A stretch of DNA of 53,278 nucleotides from Nanobdellota archaeon (GCA_038043805.1 JBBTBG010000004.1:1-53278); one strand, 5' to 3'; counted from the stretch's first letter, positions 4,216 through 53,148 are shown. Notes: generated from the sequence alone by a model not told the origin. Program-made: numbers and translations.

Positions 4216-4889
4216 ATGCTAGACCAAATCATCATATATGTTAAAGATGCTTTCAGAGAGCATCCAGGGCAGATCAGACATTTTGAGAGAACGCTCTACT
4301 GGTTAAGAGAGTATCATGCAGAAGCAGATGAGGCTTTTCAAATTGCAGCGTACGCGCATGACATTGAGCGTGCAACGAAAAACGAATAGATTGCCAGAAT
4401 TCCCTTGCTGAGTCAACATGGATATCGTGACCCTGAATTTCTTAAGTATCATCAAGAGCAAGGAGCTAGAGTAATTAAGGAATTTTTACAATCAGAAAAA
4501 CGATGCGCCACCTCACCTTAAAAGGTGAGGTTTGAATAGGCGCTCGTTTTTTGGATGCTCAAGGAACAACTCCAGCTTAAAAGCTGGAGTTTGCGTCAAG
4601 TTCCTTGACATCACATGCATACCCTGTGACTCTCTGCGATCGCGTTCATAGTTTAGTAGCAGCACATGAAGTCGGAGGAGATTTTGAACAAAAACTGTTG
4701 AAAGATTGTGATAGCATGAGTTTCTTTGAAACACAAGTCGATGGATTTGTCACAAAAAAAGTTCCTGAGTTAGGCGTAGTAAAAGTGCGTGATAAATTTG
4801 ACTGGATGTTTAATCGTATCTCTGATTCTAACATACAACATCAAGTGCGGAATCTTTACCAAGGAGCAATTAACCGGCTCCCATTATAA
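4216..4889 (+). pseudogene. HD-domain protein gene interrupted by an in-frame TAG (4387-4389) and by a 119-nt family A element
   Basis: ATG at 4216 reads ...AAYAHDIERATKNE, then TAG, then continues in the same frame as IARIPLLSQHGYRDPEFLKYHQEQGARVIKEFLQS up to 4494. The C-terminal part (HAYPVTLCDRVHSLVAAHEVGGDFEQKLLKDCDSMSFFE...) is in a different frame from 4614. Deleting 4495-4613 (119 nt, 2 mod 3) joins the two frames. Confidence 0.6.
4495..4613 (+). mobile_element. Family A structured insertion element, copy 1 (119 nt)
   Basis: Basal stem 4496-4503/4544-4551 plus GCGC/GCGC (4505-4508/4540-4543). Hairpin 4511-4517/4524-4530. Conserved joint TTTGAATAG, linker TGGATGCTC, second stem 4561-4567/4600-4606, tail GACATCA. 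Preceded by AATCA. Homologous to 24165-24271 and 46599-46691. Confidence 0.75.
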
Positions 4890-7701: not shown

Positions 7702-8124
7702 ATGAATAAGCGCAAACTTATCTCTGGGAAAGAAGCAACGTATCGAGTGAAAATCTCCCCGCAGGCAGAAAAGATGATAAGAACACTACTTCATCAGGGA
7801 GGTTATGGAAGAAATATGAATGCGACTATTGAGTGGATTGTAGGAGACTGGCTTATTCATCAAAAACGTCTTTTTGAGCTCTTTGAATTAAGCGTTGACC
7901 AAGCAAAAAAAGAAGGCTATCTACCCTTTAGAGTTAAAGATCCGCAGGAAGACAGACGTTCAGGAAATAAGAGAAGAGGTGGTTATGATATTACCTTGCG
8001 AGGAATGGCGATGTATAAAGTGGATAAGCTTGCCCAGACAGGACTTTTTGGAGAAACGAACGCACAAGTAGTTGAACGCGTAGTCTATCGCGCTTTAGAA
8101 TATGCATTAGCAGAAGAAAAATAG
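7702..8124 (+). CDS. Hypothetical protein
   Basis: 140-aa ORF with a TATA-like ATTTATAC about 25 nt upstream. Confidence 0.5.
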   Translation: MNKRKLISGKEATYRVKISPQAEKMIRTLLHQGGYGRNMNATIEWIVGDWLIHQKRLFELFELSVDQAKKEGYLPFRVKDPQEDRRSGNKRRGGYDITLRGMAMYKVDKLAQTGLFGETNAQVVERVVYRALEYALAEEK

Positions 8125-24164: not shown

Positions 24165-24271
24165 TTATGTCGGGAACCGACGAAAACCACGTCATTCATG
24201 GCGTGGTGGTTCCCGAGCATCTCCAAAAACGAGCGCCTATTCAAACCACGGCTTTTAGCGCATCGTTTTTA
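24165..24271 (-). mobile_element. Family A structured insertion element, copy 2 (107 nt, intergenic, first hairpin largely deleted)
   Basis: The reverse complement reads AATCA|TAAAAACGATGCGC-TAAAAGCCGTGG-TTTGAATAGGCGCTCGTTTTTGGAGATGCTC-GGGAACC...GGTTCCC-GACATAA. Confidence 0.7.
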
Positions 24272-24347
24272 TGATTTATTTTTTTCTTTGTCTGAAAATA
24301 AGAGTTATGCGTTCTTCTGTTATTTTTTCAAGATAATGAAAAGGTTT

Positions 24348-28243: not shown

Positions 28244-28323
28244 CTCGGAATCGAAGCGCTCACAGAGCAAAGCTCCGTGGCGACTTTTGCGAAGTATTCG
28301 CTCAAGTATTCCTCTTCTAGACG
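28244..28323 (+). repeat. Family B tRNA-linked module: 64-nt conserved two-hairpin insert (28244-28307) plus a degenerate repeat of the tRNA-Ser 3' end (28308-28323)
   Basis: About 52 of 65 hand-aligned columns are identical to the sequence following tRNA-Val (53085-53148, minus strand). ATTCCTCTTCTAGACG matches tRNA positions 58-73 (ATTCCTCGTCTGGGCG) at 13/16. The repeat period is exactly 80 nt. Confidence 0.75.
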
Positions 28324-46239: not shown

Positions 46240-46458
46240 TTACAATCCTTCTACCGCTTGTTCAATAAGACGAGAGACAGAAGAACCCTTAGCTTTGCTT
46301 ACTTCTTTAAGTTTCTTAATAGTACGCAAGGGAAGGGTAATATCTATACGCTTTCGTTTCCACAATTTCTCTCGTGTCTGGTCATAATGCTCCAGCTCCA
46401 TGAAATCTTGCTTGTACTTCTCAAAAATGTATTTGATATATTCTTCAGTGAATGACAT
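46240..46458 (-). CDS. Ribbon-helix-helix (CopG-like) protein, candidate antitoxin
   Basis: C-terminal IDITLPLRTIKKLKEVSKAKGSSVSRLIEQAV fits the RHH pattern. 14-nt overlap with the Doc gene. Confidence 0.6.
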   Translation of the reverse strand: MSFTEEYIKYIFEKYKQDFMELEHYDQTREKLWKRKRIDITLPLRTIKKLKEVSKAKGSSVSRLIEQAVEGL

Positions 46459-46879
46459 GTTTCAACCTCTCTGCAATAACGCGAATGTCACTAATATTTT
46501 TAGAAGCGATGGAAAGCATATGATGTTTGAGTAATTCTCGATCAACAGTTTTTTTGTGTTGATCAGCAAAGGCAAATGTTATAAACATGGCTGTTTTTTT
46601 ATGTCGGGGATCGACGGTCGCTCCCCGAGCATCCAAAGCACGAGCGCTTCCCCAAACCCCATCCTTTAGGATGGAGTGCGCATCGTGCTTTTGATTTCCA
46701 TCACTAAAGGGATGGTCAATTAAAATGGCTCGCATAAGATAGGCAAGTTTTTTGTAAATGCCTAATTTCTTTCTCTGCTGTTGATCGAGGGCAAAATCAA
46801 GGCTTGAGCTATTACTAAGAGTACCTCCAAATCCAAGAGCAATTCTACTAATGTCTTCCTTACTAATATTCATACACAT
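46445..46879 (-). CDS. doc: Doc (Fic-fold) toxin gene carrying an in-frame 93-nt family A element inside the catalytic motif
   Basis: HPFSDGNQK-[31 inserted codons]-TAMFITFAF. Removing 46599-46691 gives HPFSDGNQKTAMF, matching the length and pattern of HPFxDGNKRTA. Confidence 0.7.
   Translation of the reverse strand: MCMNISKEDISRIALGFGGTLSNSSSLDFALDQQQRKKLGIYKKLAYLMRAILIDHPFSDGNQKHDAHSILKDGVWGSARALDARGATVDPRHKKTAMFITFAFADQHKKTVDRELLKHHMLSIASKNISDIRVIAERLKHVIH
46599..46691 (-). mobile_element. Family A structured insertion element, copy 3 (93 nt)
   Basis: The minus strand reads AATCA|AAAGCACGA-T-GCGC-AC-TCCATCC-TAAA-GGATGGGG-TTTGGGGAA-GCGC-TCGTGCTTT-GGATGCTC-GGGGA-GCGACCGTCGA-TCCCC-GACATAA. 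Confidence 0.75.
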
Positions 46880-46969: not shown

Positions 46970-47572
46970 TTAGAGCTCACGAAATTTAACTCTATGCTTC
47001 TGAAGAGCTTCTCGAATTGCAGAAGCATCCTTTACATTAACAAAAAGTACATTTGAAAGTTTATCTATATTCAACGAAGAAACAATTCCTTCTCGTCGGT
47101 AAACTTTTTTGCCTTTCTTAAGGGTATAACCATAGAGCTCACGAAGTACAGCCATTTTCTGATGTTGTTTCAAGGAAGAAAGGTCGTATGAAATAAGAAC
47201 GTTATCCCCCTCTCTCTTCTCAAAAGAACACTTTCCATAAATAAGGATCCCATAAGCAGTTAATTCTCTTCGTAGTTCATTCCACTGTTCACTCTGCAAG
47301 TCACCTACAAGTACTGAAAGGGGAAGGGTAATCCCCCTCAATTTCCAAGTTTTTTCAGAGCGAAGTTCAAATTCATTGACAGCTTCTCGACAGAACGATT
47401 GTATCTCTCCGATTAGTTTATTATCGTTGATATCAATAAACAAGTCAACATCAGAGTCTTTTTTCTGTTCTCCACGCGCTACACTCCCAAAAAGAGTAAT
47501 ACTTCTTATTTTTTCTCTATCTTTTAACTTATCAAAGAAGACAGAAAGAAAATCATAAACATAAGCGAGCAT
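46970..47572 (-). CDS. Minimal nucleotidyltransferase (MNT-type)
   Basis: LFGSVARGEQKKDSDVDLFIDI signature. I take the start at MLAYVYD (47572), 1 nt after the stop of the upstream gene. Confidence 0.75.
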   Translation of the reverse strand: MLAYVYDFLSVFFDKLKDREKIRSITLFGSVARGEQKKDSDVDLFIDINDNKLIGEIQSFCREAVNEFELRSEKTWKLRGITLPLSVLVGDLQSEQWNELRRELTAYGILIYGKCSFEKREGDNVLISYDLSSLKQHQKMAVLRELYGYTLKKGKKVYRREGIVSSLNIDKLSNVLFVNVKDASAIREALQKHRVKFREL

Positions 47573-47573
47573 G

Positions 47574-47966
47574 CTACATTTTCTCCTCAAGTAGTTTTTG
47601 TAATGCAAATAACAATTCAATAGCTTCTTCCGCTTCTCTGGCTTCTTTATCTCTACCATAACAGAGGCGATTTCTTAATTCTTCAATACGAACAAGCTTC
47701 TTAAGAATGTCTTCTTTGTGGTTAAAGGCAAAAGAAAATGTATTCTCCGATCGTTTTTCAGATGCAAAAAAAGAATGGTTCACGTGAAATCCAGGAGGTA
47801 TTAAGAGATGTTCATGTAGGAAAATTGCAAAAAGATTCGTCGCTGCTTCAGAAACGGCAAATCCTATAATTTTTTGTCGTTGAACAACCAATCCAAGACG
47901 AATCTTTTCTTCGATGTCATCTATAAGTTCCTTTACAATTTTCTGATGTTCTTCAATGGAAGGCAT
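47574..47966 (-). CDS. Helical HEPN-like partner of the MNT (no clear RxxxxH motif)
   Basis: 130-aa helical ORF directly upstream of the NTase. I take the start at MPSIEEHQK (47966) because a TATA-like TTATATATA lies ~21 nt upstream on the minus strand. Confidence 0.45.
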   Translation of the reverse strand: MPSIEEHQKIVKELIDDIEEKIRLGLVVQRQKIIGFAVSEAATNLFAIFLHEHLLIPPGFHVNHSFFASEKRSENTFSFAFNHKEDILKKLVRIEELRNRLCYGRDKEAREAEEAIELLFALQKLLEEKM

Positions 47967-48001
47967 AAGGAAGAATAATAAAAGAAGTATATATAACTTT
48001 C

Positions 48002-48056
48002 TGTTATTAATAACAGAAAAGATGTTATACATAACAAATTTATGTTACATATAACA
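48002..48056. promoter_or_regulatory. Three phased operator palindromes TGTTA-N4-TAACA upstream of the HEPN-like/MNT operon
   Basis: TGTTATTAATAACA (48002-48015), TGTTATACATAACA (48023-48036) and TGTTACATATAACA (48043-48056). Starts are spaced 21 and 20 nt apart, immediately upstream of the TATA box. Confidence 0.6.
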
Positions 48057-52829: not shown

Positions 52830-53123
52830 ATGTCGCGATTATGGGGAAGTATCCGTGAAGTAGGATCTCTAGCATTATGGTCAGGATATATGATCTACGA
52901 AGCAGGCGTGGACCTTCTCAGCATTACCTACAATCGACTCAAAAACTACCGTATTTCTTATATGAAAGAAAAAGATCTTTTTATTCCAACTATCTATCTC
53001 CCTTCAGGAAGAGACGATCATCGTGCCCTGCCTCTATTGAATCTCATCTATAAAGAAAAAGAAAGAACTGGCCCCACAGGGAATACTTTAGCGAATACTT
53101 CGCGAAAGTCACCACGGAACTAA
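52830..53123 (+). CDS. Hypothetical small protein; the 3' end reads into the family B repeat
   Basis: 97-aa ORF with a hydrophobic N-terminus. The last ~18 codons (TGPTGNTLANTSRKSPRN) are encoded by the tRNA-Val 3' repeat and the 64-nt module, so the C-terminus is doubtful. Confidence 0.4.
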   Translation: MSRLWGSIREVGSLALWSGYMIYEAGVDLLSITYNRLKNYRISYMKEKDLFIPTIYLPSGRDDHRALPLLNLIYKEKERTGPTGNTLANTSRKSPRN

Positions 53124-53148
53124 GTTCTGTGAGTGCGTTCGATTCAGA
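53069..53148 (-). repeat. Family B tRNA-linked module: 64-nt conserved insert (53085-53148) plus an exact 16-nt repeat of the tRNA-Val 3' end (53069-53084)
   Basis: On the minus strand, ATTCCCTGTGGGGCCA occurs at 53164-53149 (inside the tRNA) and again at 53084-53069, 80 nt apart. The intervening 64 nt is homologous to 28244-28307. Confidence 0.75.

What the first reader, a model, noticed from the sequence alone, without database searches (positions are those of the whole stretch)
46599..46691. Family A copy sits in sense orientation and in frame inside the catalytic HPFxDGNKR motif of a Doc toxin
The Doc ORF reads HPFSDGNQK, then 31 codons with no stop, then TAMFITFAF. The 31 codons are exactly the 93-nt element. 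Removing it yields HPFSDGNQKTAMF, the normal spacing of the Fic/Doc signature. There are three possibilities. The toxin may be inactivated by a mobile insertion. The element may be removed from the mRNA, intron-like, so that toxin production depends on RNA processing. Or a 31-aa loop may be tolerated. The element lies in the same orientation as its host gene here and in the HD gene, which an RNA-level mechanism would require.
Basis: partly seen in the sequence, partly recalled or inferred. Interest (0 to 1): 0.75.

Follow-up and report, generated by a model that had tools for sequence, protein, structure and literature searches.

The report
Hairpin mobile element inside Doc toxin
A 93-base, two-hairpin mobile DNA element, from a large and apparently undescribed family in tiny DPANN archaea, has landed in frame inside the catalytic motif of a Doc toxin gene because that stretch of DNA is the element's favourite landing site; nothing suggests it is spliced out like an intron.

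Summary
The Doc ORF (46445-46879, minus strand) is 144 aa, while nearly all of the listed homologs are 111-113 aa and read DGN-KKTAMF without a gap. The extra 31 codons are one copy of a repeat.

The repeat belongs to a family found in about 48 Pacearchaeota, Woesearchaeota and Nanoarchaeota MAGs. I parsed 105 complete copies. Each has two adjacent hairpin domains with strong covariation. AT precedes the element in 105/105 copies, and 96/105 end in GACAT.

- Orientation relative to genes is random.
- G:U pairs are not favoured over A:C mismatches.
- Real genes are interrupted in both orientations, usually with stop codons.

These results fit a DNA-level non-autonomous mobile element and argue against an intron.

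A target-site matrix built from 97 other insertion sites ranks the Doc site 1st of 652 positions in the gene. A distant Doc ortholog carries a different subfamily member at the same site, which ranks 2nd of 640. Target preference therefore explains both the position and the sense orientation.

The insert is translated as a loop that AlphaFold models with low confidence. I infer that Doc is crippled or attenuated; this was not tested. The closest analogues are Rickettsia palindromic elements and hairpin elements of the IS200/IS605 or REP type. The mobilising enzyme was not identified.

The parts
46601..46693 (-). Family A element, copy 3 (93 nt, 31 codons, in frame and free of stops), inserted in the Doc gene between the codons for Asn62 (AAT) and Lys (AAA)
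   Evidence: The boundaries come from 105 family members (AT|CA...GACAT|). Removal gives the ortholog consensus HPFSDGNKKTAMF.
46635..46693 (-). Domain 1: the basal helix CAAAAGCACGA(T)GCGC / GCGCTCGTGCTTTG with one bulged base, plus the apical hairpin CTCCATCCTAAAGGATGGGG
   Evidence: This copy has AAAAGCAC/GTGCTTT where the consensus has AAAAAAAC/GTTTTTT, which is a compensatory change.
46627..46637 (-). Central conserved strand TTTGGATGCTC. It pairs with both the 5' end and the 3' end of the element, so the two ends abut on it.
   Evidence: GGATGCTC is invariant in alignment A4.
46601..46632 (-). Domain 2: the helix ATG(C)TCGGGGA / TCCCCGACAT with a short inner hairpin. Compared with the full-length 117-nt relative in L125, this copy has lost 24 nt of the apical hairpin.
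46694..46695 (-). The AT dinucleotide immediately 5' of the element, the last two bases of the Asn codon. It is either the invariant target or a 2-bp duplicated core.
   Evidence: AT precedes the element in 105/105 copies and at 101/101 non-redundant sites.
46445..46879 (-). Host gene: a small Doc/Fic-family toxin, 144 aa with the insert and 113 aa without it
   Evidence: The AlphaFold model is closest to P1 Doc (3k33, 3kh2, 3dd7; probability 0.97-0.99, target-normalised TM 0.64-0.69).
46240..46458 (-). Downstream ribbon-helix-helix gene, the putative antitoxin. It overlaps the end of Doc by 14 nt. The same gene pair occurs in L002, and the two are fused in P0027.
4493..4611 (+). Family A element, copy 1 (119 nt, full length), in sense orientation in an HD/DUF4202 gene. 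It shifts the reading frame and carries stop codons.
4216..4889 (+). HD/DUF4202 gene interrupted by copy 1, with an additional in-frame TAG at 4387-4389. It is probably a pseudogene.
24167..24273 (-). Family A element, copy 2 (107 nt). It is intergenic, and its domain-1 apical hairpin is partly deleted.

Best explanation
The 93 nt are a copy of a non-autonomous mobile DNA element. The element is built from two adjacent imperfect palindromes (hairpin domains), and its 5' and 3' ends both pair with one conserved central strand (TTTTTTGG-ATGCTC). The family inserts in one defined orientation at an AT dinucleotide within an A-rich stretch (consensus KAAWAT|AAAAAAA). This target resembles the element's own joined ends (..GACAT|CAAAAAAAC..). 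In AT-rich DPANN genomes the DNA that encodes the Doc motif D-G-N-K-K-T (GATGGAAAT|AAAAAAAC) is by far the best such site in the gene. That explains why the element sits in the catalytic motif, why it is in sense orientation, and why a distant Doc ortholog was hit at the same place by a different subfamily member. The insert stays in the mRNA and is translated as a 31-residue loop between Asn62 and the Lys-Lys that begins the next helix. I infer that this cripples or attenuates the kinase-type active site. Continued translation of the ORF may still matter, because the downstream RHH gene overlaps it by 14 nt. The steps that are shown are insertion, family membership, structure conservation, target preference, random orientation, and gene disruption elsewhere. 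The steps that are inferred are the mobilisation mechanism (a hairpin- or ssDNA-recognising or site-specific recombinase acting in trans, not identified) and the loss of Doc activity.
For: Insertion: homologs are 111-113 aa with an uninterrupted DGNKKTAMF, and the Pfam Fic match is restored by removal. Mobility: a pattern scan of species-representative genomes gave more than 115 stretches, about 100 of them true and all true ones in Pacearchaeota, Woesearchaeota or Nanoarchaeota MAGs. One MAG (VGKP01) has 15 or more near-identical 120-nt copies in different flanks. Boundaries: AT precedes 105/105 copies and GACAT ends 96/105. In-silico removal reopens ORFs with Pfam domains that span the junction, including copies whose length is not a multiple of 3. 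Structure: of 37 pairs, 95.9% of cells are paired, against 80% in shuffles and about 40% in slid controls. 25 pairs show compensatory changes, and 0/500 shuffles reach the observed values. Both strands of the Doc copy fold well (z -4.5 as RNA on the sense strand, z -5.6 as DNA on the other strand). DNA level rather than RNA level: G:U 33 vs A:C 23; in-ORF copies are 15 sense and 9 antisense, and intergenic copies show no orientation bias; about 77% of copies are intergenic; most genic copies carry stops. Target: a PWM from 97 independent sites ranks the true Doc site 1st of 652 positions (11.6 bits, next best 5.1) in the window gene and 2nd of 640 in the L002 gene. Independence: the two insert-bearing Doc genes are 62% identical, and each sits among uninterrupted relatives that are 76-77% identical to it. 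Their inserts belong to different subfamilies. Translation: the ORF is open, and AlphaFold keeps the Doc fold with residues 62-87 at pLDDT below 50.
Against: No transposase or recombinase was found, so mobilisation in trans is assumed. The ends are not inverted repeats of each other, so this is not a textbook MITE. Both known Doc insertions keep the frame and have no stop, although only 5 of 73 non-redundant family members would do so in this phase. All invariant Doc residues are intact as well. This hints that the insert-bearing protein, or at least its translation, is under selection, which sits awkwardly with simple inactivation. The hint is weakened by the fact that the GC-rich subfamily is inherently open in this frame. 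Strong stem covariation is also what a functional RNA would show. No expression data are available.
Confidence: 0.75

Rival explanations
1. Tolerated or domesticated loop. The element-encoded 31 residues loop out of the Fic/Doc core, and the toxin remains active or gains an altered, regulated activity. The ORF is therefore kept by selection, as proposed for Rickettsia palindromic elements in proteins.
For: The ORF is preserved in two independent Doc insertions, against a family-wide prior of about 7% per event. All 26 invariant alignment columns are intact in both proteins. The element's first codons (CAA AAG = QK) partly regenerate DGNxK. The 24-nt internal deletion in this copy, relative to the 117-nt relative, is a multiple of 3. 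An essential PheRS-beta gene carries an in-frame, stop-free 87-nt copy. AlphaFold keeps the Doc fold around the loop.
Against: The insert splits the Asn-Lys junction of the catalytic loop-helix motif. From established knowledge of Fic/Doc enzymes, these residues must be contiguous to bind the phosphate. AlphaFold confidence for the loop is below 50, and the model says nothing about activity. The GC-rich subfamily is open in this frame in any case. ORF maintenance could instead serve translational coupling to the overlapping RHH gene.
Confidence: 0.2
2. Intron-like RNA element. The structured RNA is cut out of the sense transcript and the exons are ligated, so that toxin production depends on RNA processing.
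For: In this window both genic copies are in sense orientation. The two ends of the element are brought together by pairing with the central strand. Removal restores both ORFs exactly. The stems covary.
Against: Antisense copies interrupt real genes: HepT, HMUDK, His-phosphatase, DHQ synthase and NUDIX. Orientation relative to genes is random. G:U pairs show no excess over A:C. The junctions show no bulge-helix-bulge, because the flanks are A-rich on both sides and cannot pair. There is no Rfam intron or ribozyme hit. Genic copies are depleted (about 23% of copies, whereas I would expect roughly 90% of such a genome to be coding; that coding fraction is my assumption and was not measured here), as expected if they are harmful. 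The HD host gene has a second lesion.
Confidence: 0.03
3. Reversible genetic switch. The element excises precisely at the DNA level, as IS200/IS605-type elements do, so the Doc gene toggles between a disrupted and an intact state within the population.
For: The closest relatives of both insert-bearing genes have clean empty sites. The geometry of the ends, abutting on a central strand, would favour precise deletion. Either a 2-bp AT repeat or the absence of any duplication is compatible with scarless loss.
Against: No empty-site allele of this same gene was found. The only other record of it, Logan contig L001, also carries the insert. This copy and the L002 copy are truncated or degenerate versions of the family consensus, which makes them poor substrates. 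No enzyme is known.
Confidence: 0.05

Closest known systems
Rickettsia palindromic elements (RPEs; reviewed in PMC10969869)
   Same: Both are palindromic repeats of roughly 100-150 bp. Both occur in reduced, AT-rich genomes and are found inside protein-coding genes in frame, where they add a peptide segment without destroying the ORF. Here this is seen in Doc twice and in PheRS-beta once.
   Different: There is no sequence relationship, and the host is archaeal (DPANN). Most copies here are intergenic (about 77%), and most genic copies carry stops and disrupt the gene. Insertion requires a strict AT dinucleotide. The architecture is two hairpins, with both ends pairing to a central strand.
Hairpin-based ssDNA elements of HUH transposases: IS200/IS605-derived MITEs (PATEs) and REP/BIME with RAYT (own knowledge; REP survey in PMC3733652)
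   Same: The ends are asymmetric and lack terminal inverted repeats. The conserved imperfect hairpins each have an extrahelical base. Insertion occurs in one orientation next to a short fixed sequence with no obvious target duplication. The hairpin structure is conserved by compensatory changes. Removal is exact.
   Different: The fixed flank is only 2 nt (AT), not 4-5 nt. The hairpins include the very termini and are not subterminal. No Y1 transposase, TnpB or RAYT was looked for or found. Strand bias relative to replication could not be tested.
Helitron / IS91 rolling-circle elements (own knowledge)
   Same: If the boundary is drawn one base over (A|TC....GACA|T), the element inserts between A and T, starts with TC and ends with a hairpin, as Helitrons do.
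   Different: There is no CTRR 3' end, no Rep/helicase gene, and the size is about 100 nt. The resemblance may be coincidental.
Archaeal bulge-helix-bulge introns in protein-coding genes (e.g. cbf5 in Crenarchaeota; own knowledge)
   Same: Both are short structured inserts in archaeal ORFs, and removing them restores the protein.
   Different: There is no BHB motif. Copies occur in both orientations and mostly between genes. The element is multi-copy and mobile.
Classical prokaryotic MITEs (Correia/NEMIS, ERIC; a bulk survey noted a high MITE density in a Woesearchaeal genome, PMC11602168)
   Same: Both are small, non-coding, multi-copy and non-autonomous, can disrupt genes or fuse with them, and are mainly intergenic.
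   Different: There are no terminal inverted repeats. The internal structure is conserved across dozens of species, not only the ends. The 2-nt flank is invariant.

Membership tests
Doc/Fic toxin (host gene) | Signature HxFx(D/N)(A/G)NKR as one contiguous loop-helix motif | tested here: met
   After removal of 46601-46693 the motif reads HPFSDGNKKTAMF (R replaced by K, as in all close homologs). With the insert, the motif is split between N and K.
Doc/Fic toxin (host gene) | Pfam PF02661 match above the gathering score | tested here: met
   27.9 bits against a cut-off of 24 without the insert; 19.7 bits (below the cut-off) with it. Homologs carry precomputed PF02661 hits.
Doc/Fic toxin (host gene) | Doc-like all-helical fold | tested here: met
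   The top Foldseek hits of the AlphaFold model are P1 Doc (3kh2, 3k33, 3dd7), with probability 0.97-0.99 and TM 0.64-0.69 on the target. E-values are weak at about 0.2. Sequence-only PDB searches gave only spurious SpeG hits.
Doc/Fic toxin (host gene) | Adjacent antitoxin gene | tested here: inconclusive
   An RHH gene lies downstream and overlaps by 14 nt, not an upstream Phd. Its Pfam RHH scores are just below the cut-offs.
Archaeal BHB intron | Two 3-nt bulges separated by a 4-bp helix at the exon-intron junctions | tested here: not met
   The fold with flanks shows two plain hairpins. Both flanks are A-rich and cannot pair.
Archaeal BHB intron | Occurs only in the sense strand of transcribed genes | tested here: not met
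   In ORFs there are 15 sense and 9 antisense copies; about 77% of copies are intergenic, in all four neighbour arrangements.
Group I/II introns and known ribozymes or RNA families | Match to a curated covariance model | tested here: not met
   The Rfam gathering search of the window found only 4 tRNAs. The E-value search of 46500-46800 found only chance hits.
Classical MITE | Terminal inverted repeats | tested here: not met
   The 5' end CAAAAAAACGATG and the 3' end CCTTGACAT are not reverse complements. Each pairs with the central strand instead.
Classical MITE | Small, non-coding, multi-copy, with target-site duplication | tested here: inconclusive
   Size is 66-171 nt and there are many copies per genome. 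AT is present on both sides (AT|..C AT|), which could be a 2-bp duplication or part of the element.
IS200/IS605-type or REP-type hairpin element | Conserved imperfect hairpins at or near both ends, with the structure kept by compensatory change | tested here: met
   There are five helices, 25 of 37 pairs show compensatory changes, and each basal helix has one bulged base.
IS200/IS605-type or REP-type hairpin element | Oriented insertion next to a fixed short sequence, without duplication | tested here: inconclusive
   AT is present at 105/105 left flanks, and the target logo is asymmetric. However, only 2 nt are fixed, and a 2-bp duplication cannot be excluded.
IS200/IS605-type or REP-type hairpin element | Cognate HUH (Y1) transposase or RAYT in the same genomes | not tested
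   No full-length autonomous copy was found in about 0.8 Mb of fetched loci. Whole MAGs could not be scanned.
Rickettsia-palindromic-element-like in-frame inserts | Palindromic repeat read in frame as part of host proteins | tested here: met
   Doc in the window, Doc in L002 and PheRS-beta in L107 all have stop-free in-frame copies. The same frame is read in P0146, P0149 and P0181.
Rickettsia-palindromic-element-like in-frame inserts | Sequence homology to RPE families | not tested
   No RPE sequences were on hand. Homology is not expected, given that the distribution is restricted to archaea.

The most novel reading that the evidence does not exclude
The conserved central strand (TTTTTTGG-ATGCTC), which pairs with both ends of the element, may act as a built-in splint or guide. 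It would hold the ends together for scarless excision and select targets that resemble the joined ends. In that case the DNA encoding the Doc catalytic motif would be a natural landing pad, and insertion and precise loss of the element would switch the toxin off and on. This would be a new hairpin-guided transposition system specific to DPANN archaea, mobilised by an enzyme not yet recognised.
Probability: 0.1. Interest if true: 0.75.

Novelty: new variant of a known kind. Interest (0 to 1): 0.45.

Why it matters
For the finding itself, the result removes the attractive reading of an intron inside a toxin. It replaces it with a concrete and testable reason for the position: the motif DNA is the best target in the gene, and a distant ortholog was hit at the same place.

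More broadly, the work brings to light an abundant, structurally conserved family of mobile elements in Pacearchaeota and Woesearchaeota that I could not find in Rfam or in the searchable literature. These are organisms with tiny genomes and no cultures.

- The family splits real genes, including several toxin or defence genes, so it affects gene calling and pseudogene counts in DPANN MAGs.
- It adds peptides to proteins, including an essential tRNA synthetase.
- Its two-hairpin, strict-AT, ends-on-a-splint design points to a transposition enzyme that has yet to be identified.

Tried and rejected
- **Rfam.** The gathering search on the whole window and the E-value search on 46500-46800 found nothing beyond tRNAs and chance hits.
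- **BHB intron, C/D or H/ACA sRNA, K-turn, hammerhead.** I checked these by eye and none has its defining motif here. An apparent CUGAUGAG in L062 belongs to a nested hairpin module and lacks the remaining hammerhead core motifs.
- **Metagenome scan for the Doc::element 5' junction** (CAYCCNTTYNNNGAYGGNAATCANAARNNC). It returned three hits, all chance matches in GC-rich bacterial DNA. This spent the only metagenome scan, and no further Doc alleles were found.
- **Viral-contig scan with the element pattern.** It returned three chance hits that lack the AT flank and the 3' arm.
- **Search for an autonomous, ORF-carrying copy.** I looked in all fetched loci for 5' and 3' halves far apart. I found only two separate elements (L089), a copy truncated by a contig end (L019) and nested small modules.
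- **Guide-target covariation.** Subfamilies with AAAAAGTC/GACTTTT or AAAAGCAC/GTGCTTT basal helices do not have matching 3' flanks. Only a few cases exist, so this is not supported.
- **P0128**, a Doc that diverges right after DG, looked like a third hit at the site. Its DNA shows a 1-nt frameshift and no element. P0124, P0126 and P0127 are ordinary or frameshifted Fic/Doc proteins.
- **Sequence-only PDB searches** gave spurious spermidine-acetyltransferase hits. The fold search was needed to reach P1 Doc.
- **ORF preservation as evidence of selection.** The raw prior of 5/73 would give p of about 0.005 for two events. I discount this because the GC-rich subfamily is open in that frame by composition.
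- **Homolog search for the HD gene.** I considered this but did not run it, because the Pfam match across the healed junction was sufficient.

Full report
**1. The observation**

The window is a 53,278-bp contig of a Nanoarchaeota (DPANN) MAG; the Doc protein is NCBI locus tag AABY00_00745. It has about 38% G+C.

On the minus strand, ORF 46445-46879 encodes 144 aa that read ...LIDHPFSDGNQK-HDAHSILKDGVWGSARALDARGATVDPRHKK-TAMFITFAF.... A search of 5.8 billion proteins returned 287 homologs. Of the 120 listed, nearly all are 111-113 aa. In alignments they read DHPFSDGN-KKTAMF with no gap.

With the insert, the Pfam Fic/Doc match is sub-threshold (19.7 bits) and stops at the motif. Without the insert it reaches 27.9 bits, above the 24-bit cut-off, and runs through the motif. 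The 31 extra codons are therefore real and lie inside the catalytic signature.

They are one copy of a repeat with three copies in the window:
- copy 1 at 4493-4611 (+), 119 nt
- copy 2 at 24167-24273 (-), 107 nt
- copy 3 at 46601-46693 (-), 93 nt

The boundary shared by the whole family gives HPFSDGNKKTAMF after removal, which is exactly the ortholog consensus.

The statement about the HD gene is also correct. Deleting 4493-4611 joins frame 0 to frame 2 and gives one protein with DUF4202 and HD matches across the junction. That gene has a second lesion, an in-frame TAG at 4387-4389.

**2. What the element is**

No Rfam family matches it.

*Distribution.* I scanned one genome per prokaryotic species with a pattern taken from two copies. 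The true hits come from about 48 MAGs labelled Pacearchaeota, Woesearchaeota, Nanoarchaeota or Nanoarchaeia. The dozen hits outside DPANN (all bacterial but one Nitrososphaerales MAG) lack the flank and the 3' arm and are chance matches. One MAG (VGKP01) has 15 or more nearly identical 120-nt copies in unrelated flanks, so the family has been mobile recently.

*Consensus.* From 105 complete copies the consensus is AT|CAAAAAAAC GATGYGCC-[hairpin]-GGTTTG...GGCRCTCG TTTTTTGG ATGCTC AAGGAAC-[hairpin]-...GTTCCTTGA CAT|AA. AT precedes the element in 105/105 copies. The element ends in GACAT in 96/105. The second base after the element is A at 92/101 sites.

*Structure.* An alignment of 38 diverse copies supports five helices arranged as two hairpin domains.
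- 95.9% of cells are paired, against 80% in column shuffles and about 40% when partners are slid.
- 25 of 37 pairs carry compensatory changes.
- None of 500 shuffles reaches the observed values.
- The base of domain 1 uses the element's first bases and the base of domain 2 uses its last bases. Both pair with one continuous, invariant central strand (TTTTTTGG-ATGCTC), so the two ends of the element abut.

*Modularity.* Other small hairpin modules are nested in some copies, and the 3' domain occurs with other 5' domains.

**3. DNA element or RNA element**

Four results point to DNA.

- **Orientation is random.** After removing each copy in silico, 24 of 105 lie in ORFs that reopen across the junction, 15 in sense and 9 in antisense. 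A cruder gene call gives 14 sense and 22 antisense, and all four intergenic neighbour arrangements occur at similar frequency.
- **The reopened ORFs are real genes with Pfam domains spanning the junction.** Antisense copies lie in HepT, a 5-hmdU DNA kinase, a histidine phosphatase, 3-dehydroquinate synthase and NUDIX. Sense copies lie in HAD, PIN, a CN-hydrolase and PheRS-beta. Most of these copies carry stop codons in the host frame, so they disrupt the gene.
- **There is no strand asymmetry.** In the helices, G:T(U) pairs (33) are not clearly more frequent than A:C mismatches (23). A functional sense-strand RNA should show a clear asymmetry. Both strands of the Doc copy fold much better than shuffles.
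- **Genic copies are depleted.** About 77% of copies are intergenic, which fits selection against genic insertions.

There is also no bulge-helix-bulge at the junctions. The flanks are A-rich on both sides and cannot pair. The intron-like option is therefore not supported.

**4. Why the catalytic motif, and why sense**

The non-redundant target logo is KAAWAT|AAAAAAA on the element's sense strand. It resembles the element's own joined ends (GACAT|CAAAAAAAC).

I built a position weight matrix from 97 sites that excluded the Doc sites, and scored every position on both strands of the healed genes.
- In the window's Doc, the true site ATGGAAAT|AAAAAAAC ranks 1st of 652 (11.6 bits; the next best is 5.1).
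- In the second Doc, the true site ranks 2nd of 640 (10.0 against 10.2).

That second gene is P0073 from MAG JAUSIT01 (locus L002). It has a 105-nt, 35-codon insert at exactly the same place, DGN|QKNSPVY...FDFGH|KRTAAF. Several results indicate that the two insertions are independent:
- The insert shares the end motifs, the central GGATGCTC and the helices with the window's copy, but not the peptide sequence.
- It belongs to a different subfamily, with a short domain 1.
- The two host proteins are only 62% identical.
- Each host protein clusters with uninterrupted relatives that are 76-77% identical to it.

So these are two independent hits on one hot spot. In AT-rich genomes the DNA that encodes D-G-N-K-K-T happens to mimic the preferred target. 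Because the target is asymmetric, the orientation is fixed as sense.

**5. Consequence for Doc**

The AlphaFold model of the 144-aa protein keeps the helical Doc core (pLDDT 85-94) and leaves residues 62-87 as a low-confidence loop. Its best structural matches are P1 Doc structures.

The insert separates Asn62 from the Lys-Lys that starts the next helix. From established knowledge of Fic/Doc enzymes, this loop-helix junction binds the phosphate. I therefore infer a dead or weakened toxin, but this was not tested.

Some results argue against simple decay.
- Both Doc insertions keep the frame and have no stop, although only 5 of 73 non-redundant family members would do so in this phase.
- All invariant residues of the alignment are present in both proteins.
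- This copy's 24-nt internal deletion, relative to a full-length 117-nt relative (L125), is a multiple of three.

A caveat applies. The GC-rich subfamily is open in this frame in other predicted proteins too (P0146, P0149, P0181), so part of the effect comes from composition.

One plausible reason to keep the ORF open is the RHH gene that overlaps the end of Doc by 14 nt. The overlap is seen here and in L002, and the two genes are fused in P0027. The one essential gene found with a copy, PheRS-beta in L107, carries an in-frame, stop-free 87-nt copy. This is the pattern known from Rickettsia palindromic elements (PMC10969869).

**6. Mechanism of mobility (inferred)**

These features do not fit a DDE-type MITE with terminal inverted repeats:
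- asymmetric ends
- conserved imperfect hairpins with one bulged base each
- a fixed dinucleotide at the junction
- oriented insertion
- exact removal
- a target that resembles the joined ends

They do fit elements moved by hairpin- or ssDNA-recognising HUH enzymes (IS200/IS605-type MITEs, REP/RAYT), or by a site-specific recombinase that uses a 2-bp AT core. If the boundary is shifted by one base, the element even mimics the Helitron rule (inserted between A and T, starting with TC, ending in a hairpin).

I found no autonomous copy in about 0.8 Mb of fetched DNA, nothing in viral contigs, and could not scan whole MAGs for enzymes. The mechanism therefore remains a hypothesis.

**7. Novelty and verdict**

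The literature held here mentions a high MITE density in one Woesearchaeal genome in a bulk survey (PMC11602168). I found no description of this family.

The Doc insertion is best seen as an ordinary outcome of an unusual element: a target-driven insertion that is translated. It is not an intron. The element family is a new variant of a known kind, namely structured, non-autonomous palindromic mobile elements, and it is specific to DPANN archaea. I rate interest as moderate (0.45).

The most novel reading still open is a hairpin-guided, scarless insertion and excision system that toggles toxin genes. I give it a probability of about 0.1.

Noticed in passing
window 28245-28312 (+) and 53080-53148 (-): A conserved sequence of about 68 nt (about 86% identical between the two copies) lies immediately 3' of tRNA-Ser(CGA) and of tRNA-Val(CAC). 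After the tRNA-Val copy, the last 11 nt of the tRNA (CTGTGGGGCCA) are repeated. This looks like an att-type duplication left by a small element integrated at tRNA 3' ends.
   Followed up: partly
window 4387-4389: There is an in-frame TAG inside the Pfam-matched part of the HD/DUF4202 gene that also carries element copy 1. The gene therefore has two lesions and is probably a pseudogene.
   Followed up: partly
L062 (-) about 7874-8000; L076 (+) about 570-760; L081 (-) about 6191; L087 (-) about 6353; L019 (-) about 4229: Other small two-hairpin modules are nested inside Family A copies, either in the domain-1 loop or between GGATGC and TC. Domains of the form 'TGTGCTC-stem-GACAT' also occur with unrelated 5' domains (L012, L097). 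This suggests a larger modular superfamily of hairpin elements in DPANN genomes.
   Followed up: no
family consensus; window 4545-4552, and 46635-46643 for the variant: Most copies carry a T6 run (GTTTTTTGG) on the sense strand just after the domain-1 hairpin, which could act as an archaeal oligo-T terminator for sense transcription. The Doc copy has GTGCTTTGG instead, with a compensating AAAAGCAC at its 5' end.
   Followed up: no
L107 4585-4671 (+), Pacearchaeota MAG JAGVWU01: An 87-nt copy is inserted in frame and without stops (29 aa, QKNDAKVSRFLDARESQHSKECGFQDSRH) in the B5 domain of the essential phenylalanyl-tRNA synthetase beta subunit.
   Followed up: partly
L011, L049, L016 and the window's Doc and L002's Doc: Several of the interrupted genes are toxin or defence-type genes: HepT, PIN, a 5-hmdU DNA kinase, and Doc twice. 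This may simply mean that such genes are dispensable. I did not test whether it is an enrichment.
   Followed up: no
window 46970-48032 (-): Directly upstream of the Doc-RHH pair lies a nucleotidyltransferase (MNT-type) gene that overlaps a 152-aa ORF, so the region looks like a cluster of toxin-antitoxin modules.
   Followed up: no
L124 740-862: A Doc homolog (P0128) that seems to diverge right at the motif is explained by a single-base deletion in GGAAA(A)CAAG. This is either an assembly error or a pseudogene, and no element is involved.
   Followed up: yes
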